From positions 42,558 through 106,557 of the IMG/VR virus record IMGVR_UViG_3300012662_000001: 64,000 nucleotides of DNA. One strand, written 5' to 3'. Source of the stretch: a virus. Both the position numbers and the translations under genes were made by a program. The notes below the pieces were generated by a model. That model was given only the letters and a program-made list of their open reading frames with translations, made no database searches and had not been told where the DNA came from. This document shows positions 2,344 through 57,668 of the stretch, in pieces (position 1 is the first letter of the stretch; each line of letters opens with the position of its first letter).

Positions 2344-3120
2344 ATGAAACTTTCAGAAAAAAGAATCGTGTTCGTCGATATGGACGACACCCTAATTAAG
2401 ACAGCGTCAGGCAAGACCTTTCCTCTGGGCGTGTACGATATGACGCTTCGCCTGGACGTGTTTGCAAAGATAAAGATGATAGCCCCGAATGCGGTGTTCA
2501 TCGTGTCCAATCAGGGTGGTCTGGAGACAGGTAACGTCAACCCAACGCTCTTTCAGCACAAGTTTATGTATGTGATAGCGGCTCTGCAGGAGTTTCTCGG
2601 ACTGCACACATTCGTCGCAGGAAAGTTCTGCCCGACCCAGAACCCAAAATTTGAGGGTCGCAAGCCGAACACAGCAATGCTCACTTCTATGCTGGACGAG
2701 TTTGAGCAGATAGTGAAGGACTACAAGTTTACCAAGGAGGAGTGTGTGTACATCGGTGACACGCTCATTGACACGGAATGGAAGACGGCTGAGAACTTCG
2801 GATGTGACTTCGTGCCTGTGGAGGACTTCCTCGGTATGCACGTTGATCCTCCCACCTATCGCATCGTGAACAAAAAGGACTGTTCCGACTATGACGGCAG
2901 GATTCTTACCAAGGCTGAGGCCGTGCAGATAGTGCGTGAACACACTAATGAGAACGGTGAAACGGAATGGGACATCGTTCCAAGCAAGTTCCTCCCTCCA
3001 AAGCCTGATGCAGCTCCGGAACCTGAGGACAAAAACAAGCCGAGATCAAAGAAGGAAGTCAAGGTCGTCGTTCCTCCGTTCGTGAAAAAGGCGGCTGAGA
3101 AAGGAAAACTGAAGAACTAA
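2344..3120 (+). CDS. HAD-superfamily phosphatase, polynucleotide-kinase-3'-phosphatase (PNK3P)-like, with lysine-rich C-terminal tail
   Basis: FVDMDDTLIKTASGKTFP (DxDxT plus the PNKP-type TLI.T.SGK.FP), VSNQGG, GRKPNTAML and IGDT match HAD motifs I-IV. Confidence 0.65.
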   Translation: MKLSEKRIVFVDMDDTLIKTASGKTFPLGVYDMTLRLDVFAKIKMIAPNAVFIVSNQGGLETGNVNPTLFQHKFMYVIAALQEFLGLHTFVAGKFCPTQNPKFEGRKPNTAMLTSMLDEFEQIVKDYKFTKEECVYIGDTLIDTEWKTAENFGCDFVPVEDFLGMHVDPPTYRIVNKKDCSDYDGRILTKAEAVQIVREHTNENGETEWDIVPSKFLPPKPDAAPEPEDKNKPRSKKEVKVVVPPFVKKAAEKGKLKN

Positions 3121-3124
3121 GATT

Positions 3125-3151
3125 TTCGGGGAGCAATCCCCGAATTTCTTT
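3125..3151 (+). terminator. intrinsic terminator hairpin
   Basis: 8-bp stem TTCGGGGA/TCCCCGAA with a GCAA loop, followed by TTTCTTT. Confidence 0.6.
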
Positions 3152-3191
3152 ATGACATCAGTTATATCTACAACAAATAAAATTACAGATT

Positions 3192-3875
3192 ATGAATTCA
3201 GAGAACTACTATTTCGTGTTTAAGGATATGAACAGTTCCTGTGGACGTGTCAAGGTTATGACATACCCCATTGAGAATCCAAGCAAGAACGCCCTTAAGA
3301 AAAAGGCCAAGAACATCATTGACAACGCTCAGAAAGCAGGAATGCGGCTGGCTCTGCTGGAAGCCTATCCAGTAACTGAAAATGTATCTCAGAATCTACC
3401 GAAGCTGTCACGTCACACCAGAAATGAGCACCTTTACAAATATGAAATTAATATGGGTGACATCCGTAGTGACAGAACCATTCGTGTTGACATCTATGAG
3501 TGCAGCACCGCTCCATATCTTCTCAATGAGAAACGTATCAAGGTTGTGTCTGAGGAATATGTGCAGAACGAGATTCGCAACGGCTATGAGATACTTGGAA
3601 TCGCCTTTATGGGCGAAGAACAGTTTGTCACCGAGCCTATTAGTGACAGTGTGGTGGAAAACTCTCGCAAATCGTCTAAAAAGGACGAATATGTGTGGGT
3701 TAAGGTCAAGGACGGTGATGACGGTAACGGCATTAATTGGATTCCGGCTCGCAGAACCTCCAACGGTGAGATTGTGTCCTTCGTGGGTCTTATGTTCACG
3801 GACACTCCGAAGGAGGACACTCGCTCGTTCACGGACTGTCCAGTTCCTGGATACGTTATTACTACAACGATGTAA
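3192..3875 (+). CDS. hypothetical protein
   Basis: Long ORF bounded by terminator hairpins. Confidence 0.5.
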   Translation: MNSENYYFVFKDMNSSCGRVKVMTYPIENPSKNALKKKAKNIIDNAQKAGMRLALLEAYPVTENVSQNLPKLSRHTRNEHLYKYEINMGDIRSDRTIRVDIYECSTAPYLLNEKRIKVVSEEYVQNEIRNGYEILGIAFMGEEQFVTEPISDSVVENSRKSSKKDEYVWVKVKDGDDGNGINWIPARRTSNGEIVSFVGLMFTDTPKEDTRSFTDCPVPGYVITTTM

Positions 3876-3920
3876 TGAGCATCGCATATTGTTTGTAAAT
3901 TCCATTTGAATAGGTTGTTG

Positions 3921-3953
3921 CCCGATCGCCTGTGACAGGTTATCGGGTTTTTC
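3921..3953 (+). terminator. intrinsic terminator hairpin
   Basis: CCCGAT...ATCGGG stem followed by TTTTTC. Confidence 0.55.
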
Positions 3954-3989
3954 TTTATATTAATCCTTGGATAATTCCAGACATTCCAC

Positions 3990-3997
3990 TATATTTG
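3990..3997 (+). promoter_or_regulatory. Bacteroidota-type -7 promoter box (TAnnTTTG)
   Basis: TATATTTG lies 29 nt upstream of the ATG at 4026. The extended TATATTTGCCGT recurs at 13774. Confidence 0.5.
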
Positions 3998-4025
3998 CCG
4001 TATAATCATTAAATCACGTTACACT

Positions 4026-4304
4026 ATGAACAGCAGCATCACATTAAAATCATTCAAATTTCAGAACAGCTCAGGATACATCAAGACGGACTATGTTCAG
4101 ATATGGTTCAAGGACAGAGAAGTGGGGGTCATCGCTCCGGAGGGCATCTTTCTTCGTATGTATGATCCTCACTGCAAGGAGGGCATCCTGAGGCCAATTG
4201 AAGCACCCAAAACAAACGATGTTTCAGTGCTTACAAGGTTCTTCAGGGGTCACTTTGACGCCATCAATGACCGCTACACGACTGTGTTCAGAAATGAGCA
4301 GTAG
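4026..4304 (+). CDS. hypothetical protein
   Basis: ORF directly downstream of a promoter box. Confidence 0.5.
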   Translation: MNSSITLKSFKFQNSSGYIKTDYVQIWFKDREVGVIAPEGIFLRMYDPHCKEGILRPIEAPKTNDVSVLTRFFRGHFDAINDRYTTVFRNEQ

Positions 4305-4487
4305 GTTGCACATAAAACAAACTAAACGTATATTTGCCCCAAAGAAAAACGTTTCATAAGGGTGAATTGGTTTAGTCTTTTTGTTAGTGTTTAGGTTAAA
4401 CTGGGGATTGACATTGCGGCTTACGAACTTCTTTCTTGTTGTTTGATTGGTTGTTATGTATTTGCTTAGATTTCTTTTCAATGAGCA

Positions 4488-4536
4488 GCCGAGGAGTACG
4501 GGCGTGACGCTTCTACTTCCTCGGCAATCCTTTTGT
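4488..4536. terminator. hairpin between convergent transcription units
   Basis: GCCGAGGAG...CTTCCTCGGC stem (about 9 bp) followed by AATCCTTTTGT on the + strand. Confidence 0.45.
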
Positions 4537-4561
4537 ATATATATGTTCGCAGAAATGTTTC

Positions 4562-5017
4562 CTACACAATCGTGAAGTCAAGATGGACGTCGTCCACATC
4601 AATGAAGCCCTGTTCCACAAGCAGAGTTGCTATTGTACAGCCGTCCGTGAACCGCACGTCAATGACTGGATACAAATTAGTGACAACGGTGAACGAGCCA
4701 ACCTTTTCTCTGTGCAGATTGTCCCATACAGGCACGACAGGCGGCCTTCGCTCTCGTGTGCGCACGCCGAACGTGCCGCCATCCTTGAGAATCGTTCTTG
4801 GCTGAACCAGAACTGTCTCCAGAGACCTGATGTACTTGCGCTTCAGCAGACAGAATGCCGTTCTACAGACGTCTCTGTTCAGTGTGATGTAGTCAGCGGA
4901 CACGTGAAACTCCTCACGCACTCTATTACGAAAGTAGTTCGTGTCCTCCTTCAGCATATCGTCAAAGTCCATACGAAGCAGGTTCAAAAGCCGCTCCTCT
5001 ACTTTAGCATTACCCAC
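4562..5017 (-). CDS. hypothetical protein
   Basis: Long ORF, last gene of the leftward cluster, overlapping the upstream gene by 19 nt. Confidence 0.5.
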   Translation of the reverse strand: MGNAKVEERLLNLLRMDFDDMLKEDTNYFRNRVREEFHVSADYITLNRDVCRTAFCLLKRKYIRSLETVLVQPRTILKDGGTFGVRTRERRPPVVPVWDNLHREKVGSFTVVTNLYPVIDVRFTDGCTIATLLVEQGFIDVDDVHLDFTIV

Positions 5018-5595
5018 GATTCAATGATTTTATCAAAGTCACTTATAGGAAGACAGCCGTATCCATACGACCCCCAATCCAGACCCCACGTGTTCTTAAA
5101 GGTAAGTTCATCCTCACTGAACGCAGTCACCGTGACAGCGTGATAACCCACAGGGCGACCCTCTCCAAGCCAGAACTGATTCGTTGCATTGTAGACAGGC
5201 AGAGCGATGAGAATCGGACCGCACGACACAAGAGCCGACTTCATAGCCATAACGGACGGAATTCGAGCGTATAGAGAGACAATGCCGTTCTTCCGAAGTA
5301 TTTCCATACCCTCCCGAGGTGTCATTCCCTCAACGGCCTTATTCTGTCTTCTGTCGTACACCCATCGTCTGTCTATGGGACACGTGTCACGGCTCCACTT
5401 CTCTCTGTCATACCTGACCATCTCATATAGGCACTGAGACACGCAGCTTCCATCAGCACCCTGATTGATGACGTCATTCCTAACATCAGCTCCAAAGAGT
5501 TTTGGAGTGGCTGTTGACAGAATCTGAACATATTCCACGTCCTTTGAACTTGCTCCTGACGGCTCGCAGCCGCATCTAATGTTCTTCAGTATCAT
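4999..5595 (-). CDS. papain-like cysteine peptidase (family C1); no signal peptide seen
   Basis: NQGADGSCVSQC (Gln oxyanion plus GSC catalytic Cys), GYHAVTVTAF (His) and FKNTWGLDWGSYGYG (N-[ST]-W-G..WG..GY) are present in the canonical order. Confidence 0.85.
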   Translation of the reverse strand: MILKNIRCGCEPSGASSKDVEYVQILSTATPKLFGADVRNDVINQGADGSCVSQCLYEMVRYDREKWSRDTCPIDRRWVYDRRQNKAVEGMTPREGMEILRKNGIVSLYARIPSVMAMKSALVSCGPILIALPVYNATNQFWLGEGRPVGYHAVTVTAFSEDELTFKNTWGLDWGSYGYGCLPISDFDKIIESWVMLK

Positions 5596-5750
5596 AGTAG
5601 ATTGAAATTATCAGCCATATCAGTGAATCCGTGCAGACGCAGAACGTGCTGAAGCTCGTGCACAAACTCGACTTTTATGTTTCCAGACCAAAAACAATTC
5701 TTGTTTGAATCATAGTCCAGAATGAAGTCTGGATCCTCTTTATCACCCAT
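5592..5750 (-). CDS. 52-aa ORF carrying an HExxH zinc-metallopeptidase-type motif, translationally coupled (ATGA overlap) to the C1 peptidase gene
   Basis: Hand translation gives MGDKEDPDFILDYDSNKNCFWSGNIKVEFVHELQHVLRLHGFTDMADNFNLL. Its stop overlaps the ATG at 5595. It is below the ORF-track cutoff. Confidence 0.4.
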   Translation of the reverse strand: MGDKEDPDFILDYDSNKNCFWSGNIKVEFVHELQHVLRLHGFTDMADNFNLL

Positions 5751-5911
5751 AGAATAGGCCGCCCATCCTTGCTTCCAGCCGTCTCGCAGAAGCCGACTTC
5801 AATCTCTTCGTGTCAATCTTCAAAAGTTTCATCACAAAACGACATTCTTCTTGGTTTATTGCTAAAGATAACCTCCTCTCTGTGCTTCCAGTTTACCGCT
5901 ACCCACGCCAT
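5751..5911 (-). pseudogene. broken reading frames upstream of the HExxH ORF; possible decayed N-terminal part of a larger gene
   Basis: A 32-aa ORF (MAWVAVNWKHREEVIFSNKPRRMSFCDETFED*) starts 1 nt after the lipoprotein gene stop and ends at 5813. The HExxH frame is open only from 5798, so the open stretches do not overlap. Confidence 0.3.
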
Positions 5912-5912
5912 A

Positions 5913-6212
5913 CTACTTCCTTCTAAATCTAACGATTGATTTTTCATTCATTAGTTCCAAAACAGAAATGGTGTATGTTTTACGTCTAAATCTTACTTCA
6001 TTGTTCACCATTGTCATAGTTGTGGAATCACTTGCTGTGAGCACGGCTCTATCCGTCCACATATCATAGGGAAGCAGAATGAAACCGTTGGACGTTGTTA
6101 GACTGTCAATTGTCCTCTGTGGGGTGTAGGTGCGTACCTCCAGATACTGAACTCCGGAGCCACAGCCTACAAGCAACATTGCAGTCATAGTAATTATCAT
6201 TAATCGTTTCAT
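5913..6212 (-). CDS. small lipoprotein
   Basis: MKRLMIITMTAMLLVGCGSG shows a signal peptide with an L-V-G-C lipobox. Confidence 0.65.
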   Translation of the reverse strand: MKRLMIITMTAMLLVGCGSGVQYLEVRTYTPQRTIDSLTTSNGFILLPYDMWTDRAVLTASDSTTMTMVNNEVRFRRKTYTISVLELMNEKSIVRFRRK

Positions 6213-6724
6213 AAGTCGTATTCCTTTGCTATTTTAACGGATTCCTCCTTGGTCATCGGGCGAACGTGATCCCAGCCCAAGTCATCAAGCAAACCCTGTG
6301 TTATGGGATAGTTCACGTGAACGTTGCCGTCCAAAGTGCAGTAGCATCTATGCTCATCATCACGGAACAGCACCACGTCCGGATAATTCTGTCTCCAGAA
6401 TATAGGGTCGGAGAACGCCACCATAACGTCACTCCACTCCGTTTCCAGACCGTGCGGCCTGTCAACATTAGGTTGAACGGACATTATTGACCGAAATTCA
6501 CTCTCTGTGAGACGTCTTGCAGGTGCTTGCAGTGAACTGGACTGTTGCTGTTCCAGAAGTCGCTGTAACTCGGTGTTCTTGATCGTAAGCTCCTCAATCA
6601 GAGCGTTGGCGTTGTCAAGCTCCTTCTGTAGATCCTTGACCTCACGTTCCTTGAAATACATCTTTCTTTCAAGGCGGTCTATCTCCGCCTTGAAAGTTTG
6701 CATATTTTGTTCTATCACTGACAT
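6209..6724 (-). CDS. hypothetical protein with N-terminal coiled coil
   Basis: The N-terminus EIDRLERKMYFKEREVKDLQKELDNANALIEELTIKNTELQRLLEQ is coiled-coil-like; 4-nt overlap with the downstream gene. Confidence 0.55.
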   Translation of the reverse strand: MSVIEQNMQTFKAEIDRLERKMYFKEREVKDLQKELDNANALIEELTIKNTELQRLLEQQQSSSLQAPARRLTESEFRSIMSVQPNVDRPHGLETEWSDVMVAFSDPIFWRQNYPDVVLFRDDEHRCYCTLDGNVHVNYPITQGLLDDLGWDHVRPMTKEESVKIAKEYDL

Positions 6725-6726
6725 TG

Positions 6727-7299
6727 TTAGTCCTTTAATGCAGTGTCCTGATTTATCTCCCCGATACCGAACTCCTTATAGTCTCGACCAATGAAGACGA
6801 TGTAGATTCTTGAAGCATAAGGCTTGTCCCAGAACTGATAATTGTATCTAAATGTATGCTGATGTTCTGTAAGATACATAATCTCTTCTCGAGGATTGCC
6901 ATCACTATGATAGTTATAGACTTCACATTCCTTTTCCAGTATCTTACAGTATTCCTCTATTGCCTGTTGTCTGTTGGAACTTACACCGTCTTCCTTGAAT
7001 AAAGGGAGTGTCTTTATCATTCGAGTGTCACTCCAGATAATATTCTTGCTGTTGGCCGCAAGCATAACTTCCCCAATGGATCTCAATCCAGCATCACTGC
7101 ATCTACCAAAGTTGATATAGACCTGATTATAGCCGACTACTTCATAGGAAACATTTCCCTTGCGAAGCTCTGAAAGCAGAACTGTGAGATTACCACCGAC
7201 GTGCATTTCCTCGATGGAGAAGAAATCAGCGGCATAGACTGAAATCGAAAGACAAAATGCTGCAATGACAGCAGCGATAATTGTAATAAATCTTTTCAT
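6727..7299 (-). CDS. secreted hypothetical protein (cleavable signal peptide)
   Basis: MKRFITIIAAVIAAFCLSISVYA/ADFF. Confidence 0.55.
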   Translation of the reverse strand: MKRFITIIAAVIAAFCLSISVYAADFFSIEEMHVGGNLTVLLSELRKGNVSYEVVGYNQVYINFGRCSDAGLRSIGEVMLAANSKNIIWSDTRMIKTLPLFKEDGVSSNRQQAIEEYCKILEKECEVYNYHSDGNPREEIMYLTEHQHTFRYNYQFWDKPYASRIYIVFIGRDYKEFGIGEINQDTALKD

Positions 7300-7312
7300 A
7301 ATACGAAATTGT

Positions 7313-8266
7313 CTATAGTTGTGAAAATATGTGTTTCAGTAGAATGCCAACGAAGTTCACGTCCCAGCCGTTGCCAGCTCTGTTCCAGAGTTGATTGGGT
7401 GTCAGTCCGGCATAGTCAAGTTCACCGTCTCTAAACCCCATAAATCTGAATCGTTCATCAGCGGACATACGTCTGACAATTTCTCTTCCGTCACGTGGCG
7501 GCTCAACCACATAGAAAACGTTGTGTTCCTCCAGTATGGTTCCAGAGAGACCGTCCGTGCGAACCTTGCGATTGTAGAGGTCGAGATTGGCGGCTTCAGT
7601 GACCTGAAGCTGATTGCCGAGCCTGTACTTCTCTTTGATGTACTGTATACGCTTATCACTAAGATACAGTGATGGGTCTGGGTGCTCGTCAAGAAGATCC
7701 TTGAAGCGCAGACTAGAAGGACACTTCGATGGAACAATACTGAACCCCTCCGGAAGACCTCCAAGCCGTGCGAATATCCAGACACGTTCCCTGTTCTGCG
7801 GTATGCCGTAGTCCTTGCTGTTCATAAGGCCGTAGGCGATATCACCATAGCCAAGCTCCTTGAATGCGTCTTTGATAAGGTTAAATGTCTCTTCAAACTT
7901 CCTGGATAGGAAGCCCTTGACATTCTCCAGAAGAACATACTTCGGCTTCTTAACGGAGCACACATAGATGATGTCAGCGAAAAGTGTGCCACGACCATAG
8001 CGGTCTCTTTCTCCTTCCTGATCACCTATGAGGCTGAACGGCTGACACGGAAAGCCGCCTGTGAACAGGTCAAAGTCAGGCAGCTCCTCTGGATTCAACT
8101 TGGTGATGTCACCGTAGTTCCTGATGTCAGGGAAGTTAGCGGCCAAAAGTTTGTTGGCATCCTTGTTGATGTCGGACTGACCCACTACCTTAAACGGTAT
8201 TCCGGAGCGTCTTAGACCGAATGACGCTCCACCGTATCCTGCGAATGTTTCAAATACTCGTAGCAT
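7313..8266 (-). CDS. dcm: DNA (cytosine-5)-methyltransferase
   Basis: Motif I FETFAGYGG, motif IV GGFPCQPFS, motif VI LLENVKG, motif VIII QNRERVWI, motif X GNGWDV. Confidence 0.9.
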   Translation of the reverse strand: MLRVFETFAGYGGASFGLRRSGIPFKVVGQSDINKDANKLLAANFPDIRNYGDITKLNPEELPDFDLFTGGFPCQPFSLIGDQEGERDRYGRGTLFADIIYVCSVKKPKYVLLENVKGFLSRKFEETFNLIKDAFKELGYGDIAYGLMNSKDYGIPQNRERVWIFARLGGLPEGFSIVPSKCPSSLRFKDLLDEHPDPSLYLSDKRIQYIKEKYRLGNQLQVTEAANLDLYNRKVRTDGLSGTILEEHNVFYVVEPPRDGREIVRRMSADERFRFMGFRDGELDYAGLTPNQLWNRAGNGWDVNFVGILLKHIFSQL

Positions 8267-51032: not shown

Positions 51033-51692
51033 ATGAATTCCACGATTAGATACATAATTGTTGGCGATAGTGAGACTGGAGGTCTTCCTAATAAGGACAA
51101 ACAGGCTTTCTATGACATTGCATTATGTGAATTTGCCTTTGTCGTCATAGATATTCAGGAAATGAAAGTGGTGGAGGAATGGAGCACTCTTTTCAGACCC
51201 TATAAGGACAATCTTGAATACAACCCCAAGGCACTTGAGGTCAACGGTCTTACGGTTGAGCAGTTGCAGGAGAGTGGTGATGACTTGAAGAACATTTACA
51301 AGGAGATGGTTACACTGTTTAAGAAGTATAAGAATCCTCGTATAGGGGCAGTGCTTGCAGGGCATAATTTTCAGCCGTTTGATATGCCTTTCTTGATTAA
51401 TATGTTTGAGTTCTGTGGCGACAATATCTGGAACTATGTCACATTTGTGGAGGATACGATGAAATTGGCTTGGTATCGTGCCACGGAGCAGGAGAATTAC
51501 AAGCTCGGAACGTGCTGTCGTATGGAGGGTGTTGACTTGGTTGATGCTCATCGTGCCCTTGCTGACACCAAGGCAAATGCTCTGTTGCTTCTAAAATATA
51601 TTTCCTATCTGCGTGGCTCTGGGGAGGGTTTAGATGTTGCGGCTCCAAGGATGAAGCCGTCTTCCTTTAGAGAGACGTTTCAACTTGTGTAG
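51033..51692 (+). CDS. DnaQ-like 3'-5' exonuclease (DEDDh)
   Basis: Exo I IVGDSETGGL, Exo II LAGHNFQPFDMPFL, Exo III HRALADTKA. Confidence 0.8.
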   Translation: MNSTIRYIIVGDSETGGLPNKDKQAFYDIALCEFAFVVIDIQEMKVVEEWSTLFRPYKDNLEYNPKALEVNGLTVEQLQESGDDLKNIYKEMVTLFKKYKNPRIGAVLAGHNFQPFDMPFLINMFEFCGDNIWNYVTFVEDTMKLAWYRATEQENYKLGTCCRMEGVDLVDAHRALADTKANALLLLKYISYLRGSGEGLDVAAPRMKPSSFRETFQLV

Positions 51693-51694
51693 TG

Positions 51695-54600
51695 ATGATT
51701 GAGTTTAATGAGAATAATAGTCTTTCTTTTCGGCAGTTGGATAGCATTATAGACACTGTGACGAGAATAGTACAGAACCTCCCTGTAAAGGCCGTAAATC
51801 AGCTTATGGAAGCATATAAGGGAGATCAGGACGCTATGCTGTCAGAGATATTTCGTCAGACGGAGAATGTTCTGAAGTTGAACACCACACTGGAGACGGA
51901 GCGTTTGTCCTATGTGGATCAACTGACTGAGAGTATGGATGATTCTCTGAAAATAATGTCATATAACTACTTTAAGACCACAATGCTTCCTAACTTTAGA
52001 CAGGGGTGGAGGAATCTTGAATGGGGTAATATGATTCAACTGTATCCGAATAGTGGCTATCTTGCGGCTCGTTCTCACGGAAAGTGTTTTCTGGCTGGAA
52101 CTCATATATTGATGGCTGACTGGACAGTGAAGAGCGTGGAGGATATCTATCCTGGAATGGAAGTGATGGGTATGGACTTCACTCCGAGAAAGGTTCTTAC
52201 ACGGCATATCGGTCGGTCACAGATGTTTACCGTGCATCAGGAGAACGGTATTTCCTATACCGTGAATAGATTTCACATTCTCTGTCTATGGGATACGAAG
52301 AGGAAGCACTATGTTGAGGTTCCGATGGGAAACTTCTTGAAGTATCCTCAGGAGAAGCAGAATAGGTTTAGGGGGTATAGAGTGTTTTCGAGTGACAATC
52401 CAATACTGGAATATTCACCTATAACCGTTGAATCGTATGGTGATGGCTCATATTATGGCTTTGCCTGTGATGGTGACCATAAGTTTCTTCTGGAGGATAA
52501 TACAGTTGTTCACAACTCCTATGAATTCTGTATGGCGTTTCCTTTGTGGAGAATGTATTCCTATCGTAGACCGAACTTTATGAAGCCTGATATTCCGGAT
52601 AATAAGAATAGAAAGGAAACGTGTATTATAACCAATACGGAAACACTCGGTAAGGAACATCTGGATAAGGTTAAGGAGGAGATTCATACCAATGAAGCAC
52701 TTTCAGCGGTGCTTAATCCGAACGGCAAGGCTTCTCTTGGTGCTACTGGCTTTGAATGTGAGAATGGATCCAAGTTGCATCTTAGAGGAAAGGACGGCTT
52801 TATCCGAGGTCTTCACGTGGGGGCGGCTGTGTCTGATGACCTCCCTGATGATAGTTCCATTTATAGTCTTGAACAAAGAGAAAAATTGAGAGATTTATTC
52901 AAGGGTGCTATCACGCCTATTGTGGAGCCGTATGGTTACAATATCGTGGACGGCTGTGTTACGCCTGATACACTTGTGCTAACGGCTGATGGCATTAAGG
53001 AAATTGGGCAGCTTGCGCCTGTTGGTCTTGACTCTGAACGTGGTTACTATGACTGGAAAGGTCAGGCGTATAATGGTCAGAATCTGGAGAATGTGTTGTC
53101 TTATTATGTGAATGGCAATACTGAGACAATTCGTGTGATACTTGACAGAGGGTTTGAATTAGAGACAAGTCACGTTCATCCAGTGCTTGTGTGTGACACG
53201 GATGGTAGGTTTGTGTGGCGTAAGTGTGAGGATCTTTCTGTTGGTGACTATGTGGCCGTGAAAATTGGTTCTAATGTATGGGGCAAGCCTTTGAATATTG
53301 ATAGAGAGGAATTGTATCAGATGGGAATGTGTGTGGCTGATGGGTGCTTGAGTGAAGATAGAATAACAATAGCCAAAAAGGTTGATGGAATACGAAAGTA
53401 CTTTATTGATGAACAGGGCTGGCATCCTGTGAAAGGTGCTACACACGATGATATTTACTTTAGGTGGTATAGACAGGAGAAACGTGAACTTTGGCATTCT
53501 CTTGGTTATGAATATGGTCTGTATAGTCACACTAAATCCATTCCAGAGAAAGTGCTTTCAGCTTCCAAGGCTGACTTGTGTGCATTTCTTTCAGGGTATT
53601 TTGACGGTGATGGATGTTTAACAAGAAATGATAGAGATCATTATCATATCAGTTGTTTTTCTGTAAGTAAACGACTAATTCAGCAGATTCAGTTCGTGCT
53701 TTTGAATATGGGCATAGTTTCACACGTTGCCTATAAGAAATGTCAATCCACTGAAAAGGTTAAGACAGATAGAATGGGATATCTATTGCGTATAAATTCT
53801 CAGAATATGATTCAGAAATTTATGCGTGAAATTGGTTTTCCTCATTCGGGCAAGGCGGATAAATATGTTGACTCAGAAGTTAAGGTGAATAATGTCTGTC
53901 AATACGGTGTGCCTTATCAACGTGACTTGTTTAAGCGAATAAGAAAACAGATTCACTTGACTGATGAAGATAAGAAGCAGTTTGGGTTGGAATCATTTAA
54001 GACACAGAATAGAACAGAGATTCCTATCTATACTGTGAGTGAAATGCAGAGATTGTCCAAGTGGGTTGAAAATTCAGAGTTGCGAAATGAAGATGCTTCT
54101 ATCTTTTTGAGTAATGCAAGATTAGGGTATGTTTTCTTACCTGTGAAGTGCTTGGAACAGGGGCAGAGTGTTACAGTTGATTTTTCAATGCAGGAGACAC
54201 ATTCCTTTGTTTCCAATGGAATTATTTCTCATAACACGCCGTATCAGGCCCAAGATCTCTATTATGAACTGAAGCAGGATCCAAAATTTATGGTATTTGA
54301 ATATCCAGCGATATTTCCTGATGGTAGACTTCTGGCTCCTGACCGTTTCACGTTTGACAAGTTAATGGAGGAGAAGAAGTCCGTTGGTACGCTTGTGTTC
54401 AGTCGTGAATATCTTGTTGTTCCCATTTCGGATGATTCCACCATATTTCCTATGGAGATATTAATGCGAAGCACGATAGGAATGGAGAATGTGCGGCTTG
54501 TGGATAACATTGAATCGTTTCCATTCAAGTTGTCCAGAGTGGTTGTGGGGTGTGACTTTGCCGTGTCAGGAAACGTGGGTGCTGACTACACCTGTTACAC

Positions 54601-55075
54601 GGTGTGGGGGAAGGACTTGAACGGTTCCTATTATCTTCTGTATATCTATCGGGAAAAGGGTCTTTCCCATAATGAGCAGATAAACAAGATAGAGTATTTG
54701 AATACGGTGTTCAAGCCGAATGAGATTGTGGTGGAGAACAATGGCTTTCAGTCCATTCTTGCTGATATGTGCGTGCAGAGAGGAATAAGGAATATATTTC
54801 CGTTTACCACCACTTCGGGGAACAAGAAGGACTTGCGAACAGGGTGGGCGTCACTTGCGGCCTTATTTGAGCGAGGTGACATACGATGTCCATATCACCC
54901 TGACACACGACAGAGAATAGACACTATGTTCGGGGAGTTTACATCCATTGCATTCCGTTCTGATAGAGGTACGTTGGAATCCATCAGTGGTCACGATGAC
55001 ACGGTGTCTTCCTCGTTTATGGCAATAAACAGATTACGTGAATCGGCTCTTCAGATCAAGGTCGATGCAGTATAA
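51695..55075 (+). CDS. terL: terminase large subunit precursor containing two inteins
   Basis: The spliced Walker A is LAARSHGK/SYEF. The nuclease-domain C-terminus reads VVGCDFAVSG...VVENNGFQS...GHDDTVSS. Confidence 0.8.
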   Translation: MIEFNENNSLSFRQLDSIIDTVTRIVQNLPVKAVNQLMEAYKGDQDAMLSEIFRQTENVLKLNTTLETERLSYVDQLTESMDDSLKIMSYNYFKTTMLPNFRQGWRNLEWGNMIQLYPNSGYLAARSHGKCFLAGTHILMADWTVKSVEDIYPGMEVMGMDFTPRKVLTRHIGRSQMFTVHQENGISYTVNRFHILCLWDTKRKHYVEVPMGNFLKYPQEKQNRFRGYRVFSSDNPILEYSPITVESYGDGSYYGFACDGDHKFLLEDNTVVHNSYEFCMAFPLWRMYSYRRPNFMKPDIPDNKNRKETCIITNTETLGKEHLDKVKEEIHTNEALSAVLNPNGKASLGATGFECENGSKLHLRGKDGFIRGLHVGAAVSDDLPDDSSIYSLEQREKLRDLFKGAITPIVEPYGYNIVDGCVTPDTLVLTADGIKEIGQLAPVGLDSERGYYDWKGQAYNGQNLENVLSYYVNGNTETIRVILDRGFELETSHVHPVLVCDTDGRFVWRKCEDLSVGDYVAVKIGSNVWGKPLNIDREELYQMGMCVADGCLSEDRITIAKKVDGIRKYFIDEQGWHPVKGATHDDIYFRWYRQEKRELWHSLGYEYGLYSHTKSIPEKVLSASKADLCAFLSGYFDGDGCLTRNDRDHYHISCFSVSKRLIQQIQFVLLNMGIVSHVAYKKCQSTEKVKTDRMGYLLRINSQNMIQKFMREIGFPHSGKADKYVDSEVKVNNVCQYGVPYQRDLFKRIRKQIHLTDEDKKQFGLESFKTQNRTEIPIYTVSEMQRLSKWVENSELRNEDASIFLSNARLGYVFLPVKCLEQGQSVTVDFSMQETHSFVSNGIISHNTPYQAQDLYYELKQDPKFMVFEYPAIFPDGRLLAPDRFTFDKLMEEKKSVGTLVFSREYLVVPISDDSTIFPMEILMRSTIGMENVRLVDNIESFPFKLSRVVVGCDFAVSGNVGADYTCYTVWGKDLNGSYYLLYIYREKGLSHNEQINKIEYLNTVFKPNEIVVENNGFQSILADMCVQRGIRNIFPFTTTSGNKKDLRTGWASLAALFERGDIRCPYHPDTRQRIDTMFGEFTSIAFRSDRGTLESISGHDDTVSSSFMAINRLRESALQIKVDAV
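52085..52516 (+). mobile_element. mini-intein 1 (144 aa) inserted in the terminase Walker A P-loop
   Basis: Starts CFLAGTHILMADW, ends YYGFACDGDHKFLLEDNTVVHN, followed by Ser+1. Excision restores GKS. Confidence 0.8.
52955..54235 (+). mobile_element. intein 2 (427 aa) with LAGLIDADG homing endonuclease domain
   Basis: Starts CVTPDTLVLTADG. DOD motifs LYQMGMCVADGC and AFLSGYFDGDGC are present. Ends THSFVSNGIISHN, followed by Thr+1. Confidence 0.85.
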
Positions 55076-55095: not shown

Positions 55096-56634
55096 ATGCA
55101 GACAAAGAAATTTGATGCGGTGTTGAGTCCGACATTTGTTGAGGAAATGCTTCGGCTCGCATATTCCAACAAGACATTCGCAAGGCTTGTGGTTGAGAAT
55201 GTTAATGTAAGCAATTTCCCTCGTGAGCTTGGTGCGTGCAAGGCGATGCTCAAGGTTCTGGCTGACAACTATCGTAATGGGGTGTTCGCTACCTTGGGAA
55301 TGGTTGAGATGGCTTTCCCGAAGAGTGAGGAAGTGGCCAAGAAGATTGCTGAGATAAAGAATATGCCTGTTCCCTCCTATGACGGTATGGTTAGGCAGTT
55401 GGAGACATTCATTCGTCGGCAGACGTTTGTGGCGGTTCAGCACGAGGTCAGTGATATGTATAACGAGGGCAAGCCTGATGAAGCGATGGACTTGTTGGGG
55501 CGCAGAATGTCTGAGATACTATCCTTTTCTCTGGAGCAGGATGCAAAGGGAAAGTTTTCCAGAATATATAGAGACTTCGTGCGTAATATAGCGATTGCGC
55601 AGCAGAAGCAGGATGACGAGGTCAAGCGACCAAAGATTCCGCTTGGCATCACGTCTCTGGATGATCTGACTGATGGCGGTGTTCCTCGTCAGGACATTGT
55701 ACTTTGGATTATGCGCTCCGGAGTGGGAAAGTCCACAGCCTTGAAGTATCACGCTTGGTACAATACGTCAATATCACATAACCACTGTCTTCACATTCAG
55801 TTGGAGGGTGGTGAGCAGGAAGCAGTTGTAAAGTTTGACCAGATGCTTGCACAGACCACCTATGCAAAGGTATTGCGAGGTGAGATTACGGCTGACACTC
55901 AGAAGCGTGTGCAGTCTCTCATCAGGAGGGCTGTTACGGTGAATTCTGATATAGACGTGTATGCCTCTGAGGAGATGATGGAAATGACAATAGCGGATAT
56001 TGTTAAGGTGGTGGAGGACTATTATCTGGAGTACGGCTATTATCCTGACTTGATAACACTGGATTCCATTGACCTCTTGCTTACAGGTCAGAACAACAAG
56101 ATAGACTATGATCCTAATTTTATCAAATATAGACTTCAGAAGTGTGCACAGCGGCTCAAGGATATAGCCACGAAGTATGACTGTGTCGTGATTACGGCCA
56201 CTCAGACGTGTGATGTTCCTATGGAACTATGGAATGACCCATCTCGTGTCATAACACGTCAGCACACAGAGGGGGATAGAACACTGGTTAAGCCGTTTTC
56301 CTTTGTGTTTACAGGTAATGTGACCAACGAGGAGGGTGCTCAGAATGTTATGCGTATCTTTTGTGATAAACTTCGAAATTACCGAAATAACGGAATAATT
56401 GTGAAGATACCGACCAACTATGAGAACGGCTTCTTTTACGACCTGAAACGCTCTGTAAAGGAGGAACAAGTGCTTGATATGAATGCTATGCTGAAGATGG
56501 ACAGCGCTCCTACACGCAGAAGACGCACGAGTGATGGCAGACAGACGGAGACAAAAACGGTTGAGGTGTCAAGCGGTGTGTTCGTGATTCAGAATGTTGA
56601 GAAGAAGAAAGTGCCACAGAGGAGGAATGCCTGA
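55096..56634 (+). CDS. DnaB-like replicative DNA helicase (RecA-fold C-terminal domain)
   Basis: IPLGITSLDDLTDGGVPRQDIVLWIMRSGVGKST (Walker A) and DLITLDSIDLL (Walker B). Confidence 0.7.
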   Translation: MQTKKFDAVLSPTFVEEMLRLAYSNKTFARLVVENVNVSNFPRELGACKAMLKVLADNYRNGVFATLGMVEMAFPKSEEVAKKIAEIKNMPVPSYDGMVRQLETFIRRQTFVAVQHEVSDMYNEGKPDEAMDLLGRRMSEILSFSLEQDAKGKFSRIYRDFVRNIAIAQQKQDDEVKRPKIPLGITSLDDLTDGGVPRQDIVLWIMRSGVGKSTALKYHAWYNTSISHNHCLHIQLEGGEQEAVVKFDQMLAQTTYAKVLRGEITADTQKRVQSLIRRAVTVNSDIDVYASEEMMEMTIADIVKVVEDYYLEYGYYPDLITLDSIDLLLTGQNNKIDYDPNFIKYRLQKCAQRLKDIATKYDCVVITATQTCDVPMELWNDPSRVITRQHTEGDRTLVKPFSFVFTGNVTNEEGAQNVMRIFCDKLRNYRNNGIIVKIPTNYENGFFYDLKRSVKEEQVLDMNAMLKMDSAPTRRRRTSDGRQTETKTVEVSSGVFVIQNVEKKKVPQRRNA

Positions 56635-57668
56635 TGAAGTACGATAAGGAAAATATCATTGACGAGCTTGGGCTTGTCCCATTCGGTTCTCAGGGGTGGC
56701 TGTCGAACAAGGAGATGGTCTGTCCATTCTGTGGTAAGTCGGGGAAGTGGGGTGTTATATTTAATGACACTGGAGGGGCGACATTTCATTGCTGGAAATG
56801 TCCACGCAAAACCTCTCTATATGAATTTCTTAAGAAAATAGATAGGGCGGATCTTGCAAAGGTTACATATACTGTCAAGCCTGATGAGGTGTGTCCTAAA
56901 ATAGGTGAGGAGCAGACAGAGGAATCACAGTGGATGATTTCTACGGAGTTGCAACCGTTGGAACTGAAACCTGTTGCACTTCCATTACGACTGAAACCAC
57001 TTGTAGGTGATGAGTACCTTGAAAATAGGGGATTCAATGACTATCATTATAGACTGTTTGAACCCTCCTATACCAATACGCCACTGGAACCGAAGTTGAG
57101 AAATTATATTGTGTTTAAGATGAAGATGGACGGTGTGTGTGTAGCGTGGTGGGCGAGAAGTCGCTATTCAAAGGAATGGCATAAGGAGAATCTGGAACTT
57201 TATAAGCAGCACAAGGCTGAACTTGTGCTTCGGTATAGAAATTCTGAGAGCAACTTTCAGGACTTGCTTGGTGGCTATGATCAACTTGTTGCGGATGTTA
57301 CACAGACGGTGATTCTTGTTGAAGGGATCTTTGATATGATAAATATCACAAATATTCTGGGACTTGCTGATGTAAGTGATGTCAAGTGTTGTTTTACATT
57401 CGGCAATAGCATTGGTAGAGGACAGATAGAATCACTCTTAAGGAAGAAAGTTAGGAATATAGTACTTTTGTACGATGACGGGACAATAGATGAGAGCCGT
57501 GAGGCCGCCTTACGAATGAGAGAACTGTTTGATACAGTGATGGTGGCGGCTATAAGGCGTAGAGGTGTTGATCCTGGAAATATAGATATAGACTATTTGA
57601 CGGAGGTGCTGGGATCAGCCTGTGATCCATTGACGTTTTCCTATAATAGGCTTGAAATGAAGATTTAG
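56634..57668 (+). CDS. DNA primase (zinc finger plus TOPRIM)
   Basis: CPFCGKSGKW...HCWKCPRK, VILVEGIFDMINI and IVLLYDDG. Confidence 0.75.
   Translation: MKYDKENIIDELGLVPFGSQGWLSNKEMVCPFCGKSGKWGVIFNDTGGATFHCWKCPRKTSLYEFLKKIDRADLAKVTYTVKPDEVCPKIGEEQTEESQWMISTELQPLELKPVALPLRLKPLVGDEYLENRGFNDYHYRLFEPSYTNTPLEPKLRNYIVFKMKMDGVCVAWWARSRYSKEWHKENLELYKQHKAELVLRYRNSESNFQDLLGGYDQLVADVTQTVILVEGIFDMINITNILGLADVSDVKCCFTFGNSIGRGQIESLLRKKVRNIVLLYDDGTIDESREAALRMRELFDTVMVAAIRRRGVDPGNIDIDYLTEVLGSACDPLTFSYNRLEMKI

What the first reader, a model, noticed from the sequence alone, without database searches (positions are those of the whole stretch)
51695..55075. Large terminase invaded by two inteins at two different ATPase motifs
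Seen in sequence: the 1127-codon ORF contains two segments with complete intein hallmarks.
- Intein 1 (52085..52516) starts at Cys1 (CFLAGTH) and ends VVHN followed by Ser+1. It sits exactly between GK and S of the Walker A loop (AARSHGK|SYEF).
- Intein 2 (52955..54235) starts CVTPDTLVL, ends IISHN followed by Thr+1, and carries two LAGLIDADG blocks. It splits NIVDG|TPYQ, which by position is likely the ATPase coupling motif (TTP/STP-like).
Inteins in terminases are known, but two in one gene, one mini and one endonuclease-bearing, both in catalytic loops, make packaging strictly dependent on protein splicing.
Basis: partly seen in the sequence, partly recalled or inferred. Interest (0 to 1): 0.6.

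Follow-up and report, generated by a model that had tools for sequence, protein, structure and literature searches.

The report
Phage terminase gene with two inteins

Summary
The ORF 51695..55075 (1126 aa) is the only large terminase (TerL) of a complete 106,557-bp gut phage.

- **Intein 1** (52085..52516, 144 aa) is a PI-SceI/Prp8-type mini-intein between K and S of Walker A.
- **Intein 2** (52955..54235, 427 aa) is a LAGLIDADG intein between G and TP of the ATPase coupling motif.
- **Spliced product.** The 555-aa extein aligns without a break with natural intein-free TerLs.

Among 150 relatives every state occurs at both sites: empty, mini, full-length and partly deleted. The mini-intein is in all 47 sampled members of the window's clade. 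It descends from a nuclease-bearing intein and is as constrained as the host protein (dN/dS 0.019).

Intein 2 is sporadic, with at least 13 presence/absence changes on the extein tree. A close relative has the exact empty site. Against one relative it is 89% identical in DNA where the flanks are 64-77%. Its tree conflicts with the host gene's tree (AU p 2e-5 and 1e-48). It therefore moves by homing.

The novelty claim is overstated. Cyanophage Mic1 and a crAss-like phage have published two-intein TerLs, and both sites are known from mycobacteriophages. Splicing itself was not tested. This scan has noted TerL P-loop inteins in many other genomes, but not this gene.

The parts
51695..55075 (+). 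TerL precursor gene (1126 aa plus TAA). A GTG at 51692 is an alternative start. It is the only large terminase in the complete genome.
   Evidence: phrog_38, E 7.6e-57 for the extein; single Terminase_6C hit in G000
51695..52084 (+). N-extein, aa 1-130. It ends in the Walker A residues AARSHGK (nt 52064..52084).
   Evidence: The T7 gp19 profile alignment puts RGIGKS on RSHGKS. The model has a beta-strand at 119-122 just before it.
52085..52516 (+). Intein 1: a 144-aa mini-intein of the PI-SceI/Prp8 (Hom_end_hint) type. Key residues are Cys1, block B N61-x-x-H64, block F D129/H132, and His143-Asn144, followed by Ser+1. It has no endonuclease.
   Evidence: Hom_end_hint E 7e-17. PI-SceI E 4e-10, matching the N- and C-terminal Hint segments. 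Prp8 intein, TM 0.87 over 144 columns; key residues conserved in 119 copies; it aligns as a deletion derivative of 345-358-aa LAGLIDADG inteins at the same site; dN/dS 0.019.
52517..52954 (+). Middle extein, aa 275-420. It starts with Ser+1, which completes Walker A (GK|S), followed by a helix. It holds Walker B GAAVSDD (nt 52820..52840) and ends in the strand YNIVDG (nt 52937..52954).
   Evidence: ADDV of T7 gp19 aligns with SDDL. D381 and D382 invariant..
52955..54235 (+). Intein 2: a 427-aa LAGLIDADG homing-endonuclease intein. Key residues are Cys1, block B S72-x-x-H75, block F D409, and His426-Asn427, followed by Thr+1. The LAGLIDADG motifs lie at nt 53315..53353 and 53585..53623.
   Evidence: LAGLIDADG_3 E 1e-13. 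TIGR01445 and TIGR01443 over their cut-offs. PI-PfuI alignment keeps both catalytic acidic residues. TliVMA and PI-PfuI inteins, E 1e-18; exact empty site in L004; horizontal transfer, and dN/dS 0.062 in the nuclease domain.
54236..55072 (+). C-extein, aa 848-1126. It starts with Thr+1-Pro, which completes G|TP, the ATPase coupling (C) motif. It includes the RNaseH-like nuclease domain at nt 54548..55033.
   Evidence: Terminase_6C E 1e-9. G20c and P74-26-type TerL nuclease, E about 2e-5. G20c and Sf6 nuclease domains.

Best explanation
**What it is.** This is the single TerL (packaging ATPase-nuclease) gene of a complete 106.6-kb human-gut phage that probably infects Bacteroidota. It is translated as a 1126-aa precursor carrying two independent class-1-type inteins.

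**How it is expected to work (inferred from the residues).**
- Each intein should excise itself by the standard route: Cys1 N-S acyl shift, attack by Ser+1 or Thr+1, cyclisation of the terminal Asn, then O-N shift.
- The product would be a 555-aa TerL in which Walker A (GK-S) and the coupling motif (G-TP) are restored.
- Until both have spliced, the ATPase cannot be built. Packaging therefore depends on two splicing events.

**The two inteins are at different stages of the intein life cycle.**
- Intein 1 is a deletion derivative of a LAGLIDADG intein that still exists full-length at the same site in related phages. It has lost its nuclease, is inherited vertically, and is present in every sampled member of the window's clade. 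Selection for splicing keeps it intact.
- Intein 2 still has an apparently intact, selectively constrained LAGLIDADG nuclease. It is present in only a minority of otherwise near-identical phages. It has moved between diverged TerL lineages, as expected for homing into the empty site GTGGACGGC|ACGCCGTAT during co-infection.
For: **Anatomy and profiles.** establish the segments and family matches. The extein matches phrog_38 TerL at E 7.6e-57.

**Intein-free natural alleles.** These align across both junctions:
- Bacteroides phage DAC19, 555 aa: AARGHSK|SFCF and VVG|TPFH.
- P0123-P0150.

**Motif assignment.** The T7 gp19 and PhiV-1 terminase alignments place Walker A, Walker B and GTP. The secondary structure of the model agrees.

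**Folds.** The model has mean pLDDT 74.6. It matches HEN-bearing inteins at E 1e-18, Prp8 mini-inteins at TM 0.87, and TerL nuclease domains.

**Catalytic residues.** C1, the block B His, the penultimate His, the terminal Asn and the +1 nucleophile are conserved in 119 of 119 intein-1 copies and 21 of 21 intein-2 copies.

**Intein 1.**
- It aligns to the Hint parts of 345-358-aa inteins with two LAGLIDADG motifs at the same site.
- Near-identical exteins occur with the site empty, full and mini: P0123, P0111 and P0112.
- All 47 rows of the window's clade carry the mini form.
- dN/dS is 0.019 at dS 0.85, against 0.007-0.026 for the exteins.

**Intein 2.**
- The exact empty site is seen in L004.
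- Its presence changes at least 13 times on the extein tree. Six or more near-identical extein pairs differ only by the intein.
- Against P0004 it is 92% identical in protein, where exteins are 80% and intein 1 is 66%.
- In DNA it is 89.4% identical against 64-77% for the flanks.
- dS is 0.48 against more than 1.8 or saturated for the rest of the gene. The nuclease domain has dN/dS 0.062.
- Intein and extein trees are incongruent, with AU p 2e-5 and 1e-48.
- Degenerate copies exist: P0011-14 lack LAGLIDADG motif 1, and P0010 has D to N in motif 2.

**Single copy.** There is only one TerL in the complete genome.
Against: - Nothing here shows splicing or endonuclease activity directly. All of it is inferred from sequence, a model and comparative data.
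- The Pfam Intein_splicing score for intein 2 is just under the curated cut-off (34.7 against 35.8 bits). The two TIGR intein models do pass.
- The clades used in the AU tests were chosen after the trees had been seen.
- Presence/absence changes cannot separate gains by homing from precise losses by recombination with empty alleles.
- The coupling-motif assignment rests on a profile alignment to T7 gp19 (E 7.5e-7) and a predicted structure, not on biochemistry.
- The model is of moderate confidence (pTM 0.44) and is poor at the junctions.
Co-occurrence of intein-plus and intein-minus alleles within one sample could not be examined.
Confidence: 0.9

Rival explanations
1. One or both inserts are decayed or non-splicing Hint-like domains. 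These could be bacterial-intein-like or cleavage-only domains, or permanent insertions. TerL would then be a pseudogene, or would work with the inserts in place.
For: No splicing assay was done. Intein 1 has Asn rather than Thr in block B. The Pfam Intein_splicing score of intein 2 is marginally below its cut-off.
Against: - N-x-x-H in block B is the PI-SceI (VMA1) pattern, as N76/H79 (PMC6805012).
- All splicing nucleophiles and the His-Asn ends are invariant in 119 and 21 copies.
- Intein 1 has dN/dS 0.019.
- The inserts physically split the P-loop and the C-motif. An unspliced protein could not form the ASCE ATPase site.
- This is the only TerL in a complete genome with terminal repeats.
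- The same architecture recurs in at least 15 protein clusters from independent samples.
Confidence: 0.04
2. The double-intein allele is an assembly chimera of co-occurring strains, one with intein 2 and one without. It would not be a real haplotype.
For: Intein-2-plus and intein-2-minus alleles with 99% identical exteins exist. Metagenome assemblers can merge strains.
Against: - Every member of the window's clade has intein 1, so any intein-2-bearing haplotype in the clade must carry both.
- Double-intein ORFs of 1117-1127 aa occur in at least 13 clusters at 51-96% identity, on contigs up to 106,785 bp from several sources.
- The reading frame is intact across all four junctions.
Confidence: 0.02
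3. The inteins are retained as conditional switches, not only as selfish elements. Splicing of one or both Cys1 inteins would respond to a signal such as redox state, and so time the activation of packaging.
For: - Intein 1 is in all 47 sampled members of the clade although it has no nuclease, and it is as constrained as the host protein.
- Both inteins use Cys1 and sit in catalytic motifs.
- Conditional splicing is documented for other ATPase inteins (PMC6195587, PMC5790916) and was proposed for Mic1 TerL (PMC7156551).
Against: - Fixation and strong constraint are equally expected for a nuclease-less intein that cannot be lost without a precise deletion and must splice for the phage to live.
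- Intein 2 is dispensable: near-identical phages lack it.
- Mycobacteriophage TerL inteins spliced fast and unconditionally in reporters (PMC5050341).
- No data here bear on regulation.
Confidence: 0.1

Closest known systems
Cyanophage Mic1 TerL with two inteins (Yang et al. 2020, PMC7156551)
   Same: One TerL precursor carries a mini-intein plus a large intein with a homing-endonuclease domain. Both have Cys1 and a terminal Asn. Packaging is proposed to depend on post-translational maturation.
   Different: [quoted passage not shown] Here both lie in the ATPase domain, inside Walker A and the C-motif. The host phage lineage is unrelated, and no population comparison was made for Mic1.
crAss-like Delta-group genome OBYQ01000140: TerL split by two inteins (Yutin et al. 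2021, PMC7886860)
   Same: It is a human-gut phage of Bacteroidota-type hosts whose TerL is encoded as three in-frame extein pieces separated by two inteins.
   Different: Those inteins are described as Hint-Hop type, and the gene uses TAG recoding. Here one is a mini-intein and one a LAGLIDADG intein, the genetic code is standard, and this TerL is not crAss-like (nearest cultured relatives: Bacteroides phages DAC19-23, 36% identity).
Mycobacteriophage TerL inteins TerL1-a (P-loop, K|T) and TerL6-f (C-motif) (Kelley et al. 2016, PMC5050341)
   Same: These are the same two kinds of insertion point: between the invariant Lys and the Ser/Thr of Walker A, and in the ATPase coupling motif of a terminase_6-type TerL. 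In that work the tested inteins spliced in reporters (TerL1-b, -c and -e, TerL6-f, Pham3880-g), and the nucleases of TerL1-b and -c cut intein-free alleles.
   Different: There each site is occupied in a different TerL family and phage, never both in one protein. I did not compare the inteins' sequences with those of the mycobacteriophage inteins.
PI-SceI (yeast VMA1 intein) and fungal Prp8 mini-inteins
   Same: Intein 1 is closest to these among solved structures. PI-SceI matches at E 4e-10, with 23 of 53 identical residues at the N-terminus. Prp8 inteins match at TM 0.87. It has the same block B N-x-x-H as PI-SceI. Like the Prp8 inteins, it is a nuclease-less remnant.
   Different: The host protein and domain of life differ. 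Intein 1 is 144 aa and has no endonuclease domain.
PI-PfuI, TliVMA and PhoVMA archaeal LAGLIDADG inteins (1dq3, 7qss, 7qst)
   Same: Intein 2 shares the Hint plus two-motif LAGLIDADG architecture. Both catalytic acidic residues are aligned.
   Different: Identity is only 13-16%, and the extein and homing site differ.

Membership tests
Class 1 intein (intein 1, nt 52085..52516) | N-terminal Cys/Ser nucleophile, block B His, C-terminal His-Asn, and a Cys/Ser/Thr at +1 | tested here: met
   C1, N61-x-x-H64, H143-N144 and S+1 are conserved in 119 of 119 copies, 88 of them distinct.
Class 1 intein (intein 1, nt 52085..52516) | Hint fold | tested here: met
   Hom_end_hint scores 62.6 bits against a cut-off of 32.1. 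PI-SceI Hint N- and C-segments match at E 4e-10. The AF2 model matches Prp8 inteins at TM 0.87 and 0.84 over about 144 columns.
Class 1 intein (intein 1, nt 52085..52516) | In-frame insert whose removal restores a contiguous host protein, with intein-free alleles existing | tested here: met
   DAC19 TerL and P0123-P0150 run straight through GK|S. Extein alignment A1 has K130 invariant.
Class 1 intein (intein 1, nt 52085..52516) | Autocatalytic protein splicing | not testable with these tools
   This needs expression with SDS-PAGE or mass spectrometry. The only indirect support is dN/dS 0.019 and a single TerL per genome.
Mini-intein (no homing endonuclease) | No endonuclease domain in the intein, and none encoded on the opposite strand or inside it | tested here: met
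   It is 144 aa. It aligns to full-length relatives with the roughly 210-aa LAGLIDADG part deleted. The antisense ORFs 51959..52207 and 52448..52687 have no Pfam match.
LAGLIDADG homing-endonuclease intein (intein 2, nt 52955..54235) | Intein N- and C-terminal splicing regions with Cys1, block B His, His-Asn and Thr+1 | tested here: met
   TIGR01445 scores 31.2 against 24.5, and TIGR01443 19.8 against 15.6. Residues are conserved in 21 of 21 copies. Pfam Intein_splicing scores 34.7, just under its 35.8 cut-off.
LAGLIDADG homing-endonuclease intein (intein 2, nt 52955..54235) | Two LAGLIDADG motifs, each with its catalytic acidic residue | tested here: met
   LAGLIDADG_3 matches at E 1e-13. In the PI-PfuI alignment, VADGC aligns with IAGDGC and FDGDGC with FDAEGH. 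Both motifs are kept in most of the copies examined, 8 of the 10 aligned; exceptions are the motif-1 deletion of P0011-14 and the motif-2 D-to-N of P0010.
LAGLIDADG homing-endonuclease intein (intein 2, nt 52955..54235) | Mobility: sporadic distribution, exact empty sites, and a phylogeny that disagrees with the host gene | tested here: met
   The empty site is seen in L004. Presence changes at least 13 times. DNA identity is 89% in the intein against 64-77% in the flanks. AU tests give p 2e-5 and 1e-48.
LAGLIDADG homing-endonuclease intein (intein 2, nt 52955..54235) | Site-specific cleavage of the intein-free allele | not testable with these tools
   This needs an in vitro cleavage assay on the empty-site DNA. 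The indirect evidence is dN/dS 0.062 in the nuclease domain.
Large terminase subunit (TerL), ASCE ATPase plus RNaseH-like nuclease | Walker A, Walker B and a coupling motif in the N-terminal domain, with a Terminase_6C-type nuclease at the C-terminus | tested here: met
   phrog_38 matches at E 7.6e-57 and Terminase_6C at E 1e-9. The profile search hits T7 gp19 (E 7.5e-7), the PhiV-1 terminase, and the G20c/P74-26-type nuclease. The fold search also matches TerL nuclease domains.

The most novel reading that the evidence does not exclude
The nuclease-less mini-intein in Walker A has been kept under host-like constraint throughout a prevalent gut-phage clade. It may have been co-opted as a conditional switch, for example a redox- or metal-sensitive one acting through Cys1, that delays activation of the packaging ATPase until late in infection of an anaerobic host. 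The mobile intein 2 would be a purely selfish rider. The clade would then be a natural system in which one gene carries one domesticated and one selfish intein.
Probability: 0.08. Interest if true: 0.55.

Novelty: new member of a known kind. Interest (0 to 1): 0.3.

Why it matters
The biology is textbook intein biology in the protein that phage inteins favour most, so the finding does not change any concept.

Its value is practical and illustrative.

1. **Annotation.** Annotators of this abundant, uncultured gut-phage clade should call one 555-aa TerL from a 1126-aa precursor. They should not report a giant or "hypothetical" protein. The nearest cultured relatives' TerLs are still annotated as hypothetical.

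2. **A natural record of the homing cycle.** The clade shows every stage at two sites 438 bp apart in one essential gene: empty, invaded, nuclease-degraded and mini. Many near-isogenic plus/minus pairs exist. This suits tests of how neighbouring inteins affect each other's spread (compare PMC10643990).

3. **Protein engineering.** The compact mini-intein, with 88 distinct natural variants recovered, could interest protein engineers.

Tried and rejected
- **Near-identical DNA in GenBank phages:** no match. The nearest records are MT835760 (58% TerL identity, intein 1 only) and the intein-free Bacteroides phages DAC19-23.
- **Endonuclease gene on the opposite strand of intein 1,** a lead from earlier scan notes on other genomes. 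The three antisense ORFs in or near the inteins have no Pfam match. Rejected.
- **A second, uninterrupted TerL in the genome:** none found.
- **Single-sequence PDB search with the extein:** only a marginal T7 gp19 hit at E 0.046. The profile of 19 exteins was needed to reach E 7.5e-7.
- **Topological conflict for the trio P0001/P0003/P0004:** none. They are also a clade on the extein tree, so for them the case for transfer rests on distances and dS. Conflict was found for P0010 instead.
- **IMG/VR scan:** among the best 80 loci none carries intein 2. Of these, 26 have the mini-intein only and 2 have a full-length intein 1. A motif script called 26 empty at both sites. The other 26 it could not classify, and their match lengths suggest they are intein-free too. 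So the double state is rare there.
- **Not done:** I did not use the second structure job or the representative-protein search. The question was already settled.


Full report
**1. The observation**

The window is the right-hand 64 kb of a 106,557-bp IMG/VR virus record. The record has direct terminal repeats and a CheckV completeness of 100%.

The ORF 51695..55075 on the + strand reads through to a TAA and gives 1126 residues. A GTG one codon upstream, at 51692, is an alternative start.

- Intein 1 is residues 131-274, nt 52085..52516, 144 aa. It runs CFLAGTH...TVVHN followed by Ser, and lies within AARSHGK|SYEF.
- Intein 2 is residues 421-847, nt 52955..54235, 427 aa. It runs CVTPDTL...GIISHN followed by Thr, and lies within YNIVDG|TPYQ.
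- Joining the three remaining pieces gives 555 aa.

**2. Are these inteins, and is the host a terminase?**

Profile searches say yes for all three parts.

- *Extein.* It matches PHROG 38, terminase large subunit, at E 7.6e-57 over residues 53-547. It matches Pfam Terminase_6C at E 1e-9.
- *Intein 1.* It matches Hom_end_hint at E 7e-17, 62.6 bits against a cut-off of 32.1.
- *Intein 2.* It matches LAGLIDADG_3 at E 1e-13. It also passes the NCBIfam intein N-terminal and C-terminal models: 31.2 against 24.5 and 19.8 against 15.6 bits. Pfam Intein_splicing falls just short, at 34.7 against 35.8.

Comparison with solved structures agrees.
- Intein 1 matches both ends of the PI-SceI Hint domain at E 4e-10. 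Twenty-three of the first 53 residues are identical.
- Intein 2 matches PI-PfuI, with the acidic residue of each LAGLIDADG motif aligned.

An AlphaFold2 model of the whole precursor was built with 53 homologues. It has mean pLDDT 74.6 and pTM 0.44. In a Foldseek search of the PDB it matches:
- endonuclease-bearing inteins (TliVMA, PI-PfuI) at E 1e-18;
- Prp8 mini-inteins at TM 0.87 and 0.84 over about 144 columns;
- TerL nuclease domains (G20c, Sf6).

**3. Where exactly do they sit?**

A profile of 19 exteins and natural intein-free relatives hits T7 gp19 (4bij, E 7.5e-7) and the PhiV-1 terminase (8dgc). The alignment pairs:
- RGIGKS with RSHGKS (Walker A);
- ADDV with SDDL (Walker B);
- LGTPQT with SGTPYS.

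In the model, a beta-strand at 119-122 leads into the P-loop. Intein 1 follows K130, and a helix starts right after Ser275. The strand 410-417 ends at G420, where intein 2 is inserted.

So intein 1 lies at the classic K|S/T site of the P-loop. Intein 2 lies at the end of the strand after Walker B, about 38 residues downstream. That is the position of the ATPase coupling (C) motif.

**4. Intein-free and other alleles**

The nearest GenBank records already show the pattern.
- Bacteroides phage DAC19 has a 555-aa TerL, annotated "hypothetical protein". It reads AARGHSK|SFCF and VVG|TPFH with no insert.
- A human-faecal contig, MT835760, has a 699-aa TerL with intein 1 only.

Two searches of the large protein collection gave 150 relatives. 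Aligning them to the extein shows inserts only at these two sites.

| Site a (after residue 130) | Site b (after residue 276) | Length (aa) | Examples |
|---|---|---|---|
| mini | empty | 692-704 | the majority |
| mini | full | 1117-1127 | the window, P0003-10, P0015-17, P0086 |
| mini | partly deleted (363 aa) | 1062 | P0011-14 |
| full (345-358 aa, two LAGLIDADG motifs) | full | 1337 and 1353 | P0090, P0113 |
| full | empty | 903 and 901 | P0111, P0114 |
| empty | full | 976 | P0109, P0110 |
| empty | empty | 550-567 | P0123-P0150 |

**5. Two inteins, two histories**

*Distribution.* On a tree of 69 exteins, presence of intein 2 changes at least 13 times and presence of intein 1 at least 7 times.
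- All 47 rows of the window's clade carry the mini-intein.
- Six or more pairs with near-identical exteins differ only by intein 2: P0001/P0018, P0004/P0074, P0006/P0065, P0009/P0087, P0015/P0094 and P0017/P0106.
- P0123, P0111 and P0112 have almost identical exteins with site a empty, full and mini.

*Intein 1.*
- It aligns to the Hint parts of the full-length inteins, with the nuclease part missing. It is therefore a deletion derivative.
- Against the contig of P0019 (L004) it has dN 0.016, dS 0.85 and dN/dS 0.019.
- That matches the exteins, at 0.007-0.026.

*Intein 2.*
- L004 lacks exactly nt 52955..54235, within one base of alignment ambiguity.
- Against P0004 the exteins are 79.6% identical in protein and intein 1 is 66%, but intein 2 is 92.3%.
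- In DNA the intein is 89.4% identical, against 64-77% for the rest of the gene.
- Its dS is about 0.5, where the rest is above 1.8 or saturated.
- The nuclease domain has dN/dS 0.062.
- The intein-2 tree groups P0010 with the window's intein, whereas the exteins group P0010 with P0015.
- AU tests reject each topology on the other data set, at p 2e-5 and 1e-48. The clades were named after the trees had been seen.
- Degenerate copies exist: P0011-14 lack the first LAGLIDADG motif, and P0010 has Asn for the second catalytic Asp.

*Catalytic residues.* Cys1, the block B His, His-Asn and the +1 nucleophile are invariant in 119 copies of intein 1 and 21 copies of intein 2.

*Block B.* In intein 1 it reads N-x-x-H, as in PI-SceI (N76/H79, PMC6805012).

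**6. Mechanism**

- *Shown:* the anatomy, the family membership by profile and fold, the insertion sites, the empty sites, the selective constraint, and the horizontal movement of intein 2.
- *Inferred:* both inteins splice by the class 1 pathway. The unspliced precursor cannot bind or hydrolyse ATP, because the P-loop and the C-motif are each split by a whole domain. Intein 2 spreads by cutting the empty site during co-infection and being copied in by repair.
- *Supporting the dependence on splicing:* the genome has only one TerL.

**7. Comparison with what is known**

TerL is the commonest intein host in actinobacteriophages, with 293 of about 780 inteins (bioRxiv 10.1101/2025.01.02.630785).

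Kelley et al. 2016 (PMC5050341) describe:
- TerL1-a inteins between the invariant Lys and Thr of the P-loop;
- TerL6-f inteins in the C-motif;
- fast splicing in reporters;
- nuclease activity on intein-free alleles.

Two inteins in one TerL are also published.
- Cyanophage Mic1 has a mini-intein plus one with a homing-endonuclease domain (PMC7156551).
- The crAss-like Delta-group genome OBYQ01000140 has a TerL split by two inteins (PMC7886860).

Relatives of both inteins are common in cultured phages, in terminases, helicases and RecA.

The finding is therefore a new member of a known kind. The only particular feature is that Walker A and the C-motif are both occupied in one protein. I did not find that exact combination described, but I did not search exhaustively.

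**8. Limits**

- No experiment was possible.
- Gains and precise losses of intein 2 cannot be told apart from the counts alone.

Noticed in passing
Outside the window: G000:C1 about 3138..5858 and beyond (L007 ORF 415..3135, open at its 3' end; intein about G000:C1 3900..4900): The genome has a third intein, in a DnaE/PolIII-alpha-like polymerase. It reads ...NTYGIF|CIAENSDVL...LLGYFLAEGS...IVGLLEGDGCM...FVVNGCVVAN|CFQEQ. It has Cys1, a terminal Asn, a penultimate Ala in place of His, and Cys+1. Pfam Intein_splicing scores 44 bits, above the 35.8 cut-off.
   Followed up: partly
L002 (MT835760) 5071..7596, compared with window 55096..56634: The DnaB-like helicase just downstream of TerL carries an intein in its P-loop in the relative MT835760 (841 aa). 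It reads SGTGK|ALTLDSK...FIVTHN|TTVLKW and starts with Ala, so it may be a class 2 or class 3 intein. The window's helicase (512 aa, SGVGKSTALKY) has that site empty.
   Followed up: no
window 52085..52243 (intein 1, residues 1-53): The N-terminal Hint segment of this gut-phage mini-intein shares 23 of 53 residues with the yeast VMA1 intein PI-SceI (E 4e-10). It also has the same unusual block B N-x-x-H. Relatives occur in TerL genes and other genes of many cultured phages, including 177 Salmonella phage records.
   Followed up: partly
window 51033..51692, 55096..56634 and 56634..57668: TerL sits between an RNase_T-type exonuclease gene and a DnaB-like helicase gene, followed by an unannotated 344-aa gene. 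It is not in a head-morphogenesis block. This order is conserved in relatives L004, L005 and L002.
   Followed up: partly
L003 (Bacteroides phage DAC19, MT074139.1) 2968..4635: The TerL of the cultured Bacteroides phages DAC19-23 and SJC03 is annotated only as "hypothetical protein". It is 36% identical to this extein over 96% of its length.
   Followed up: no
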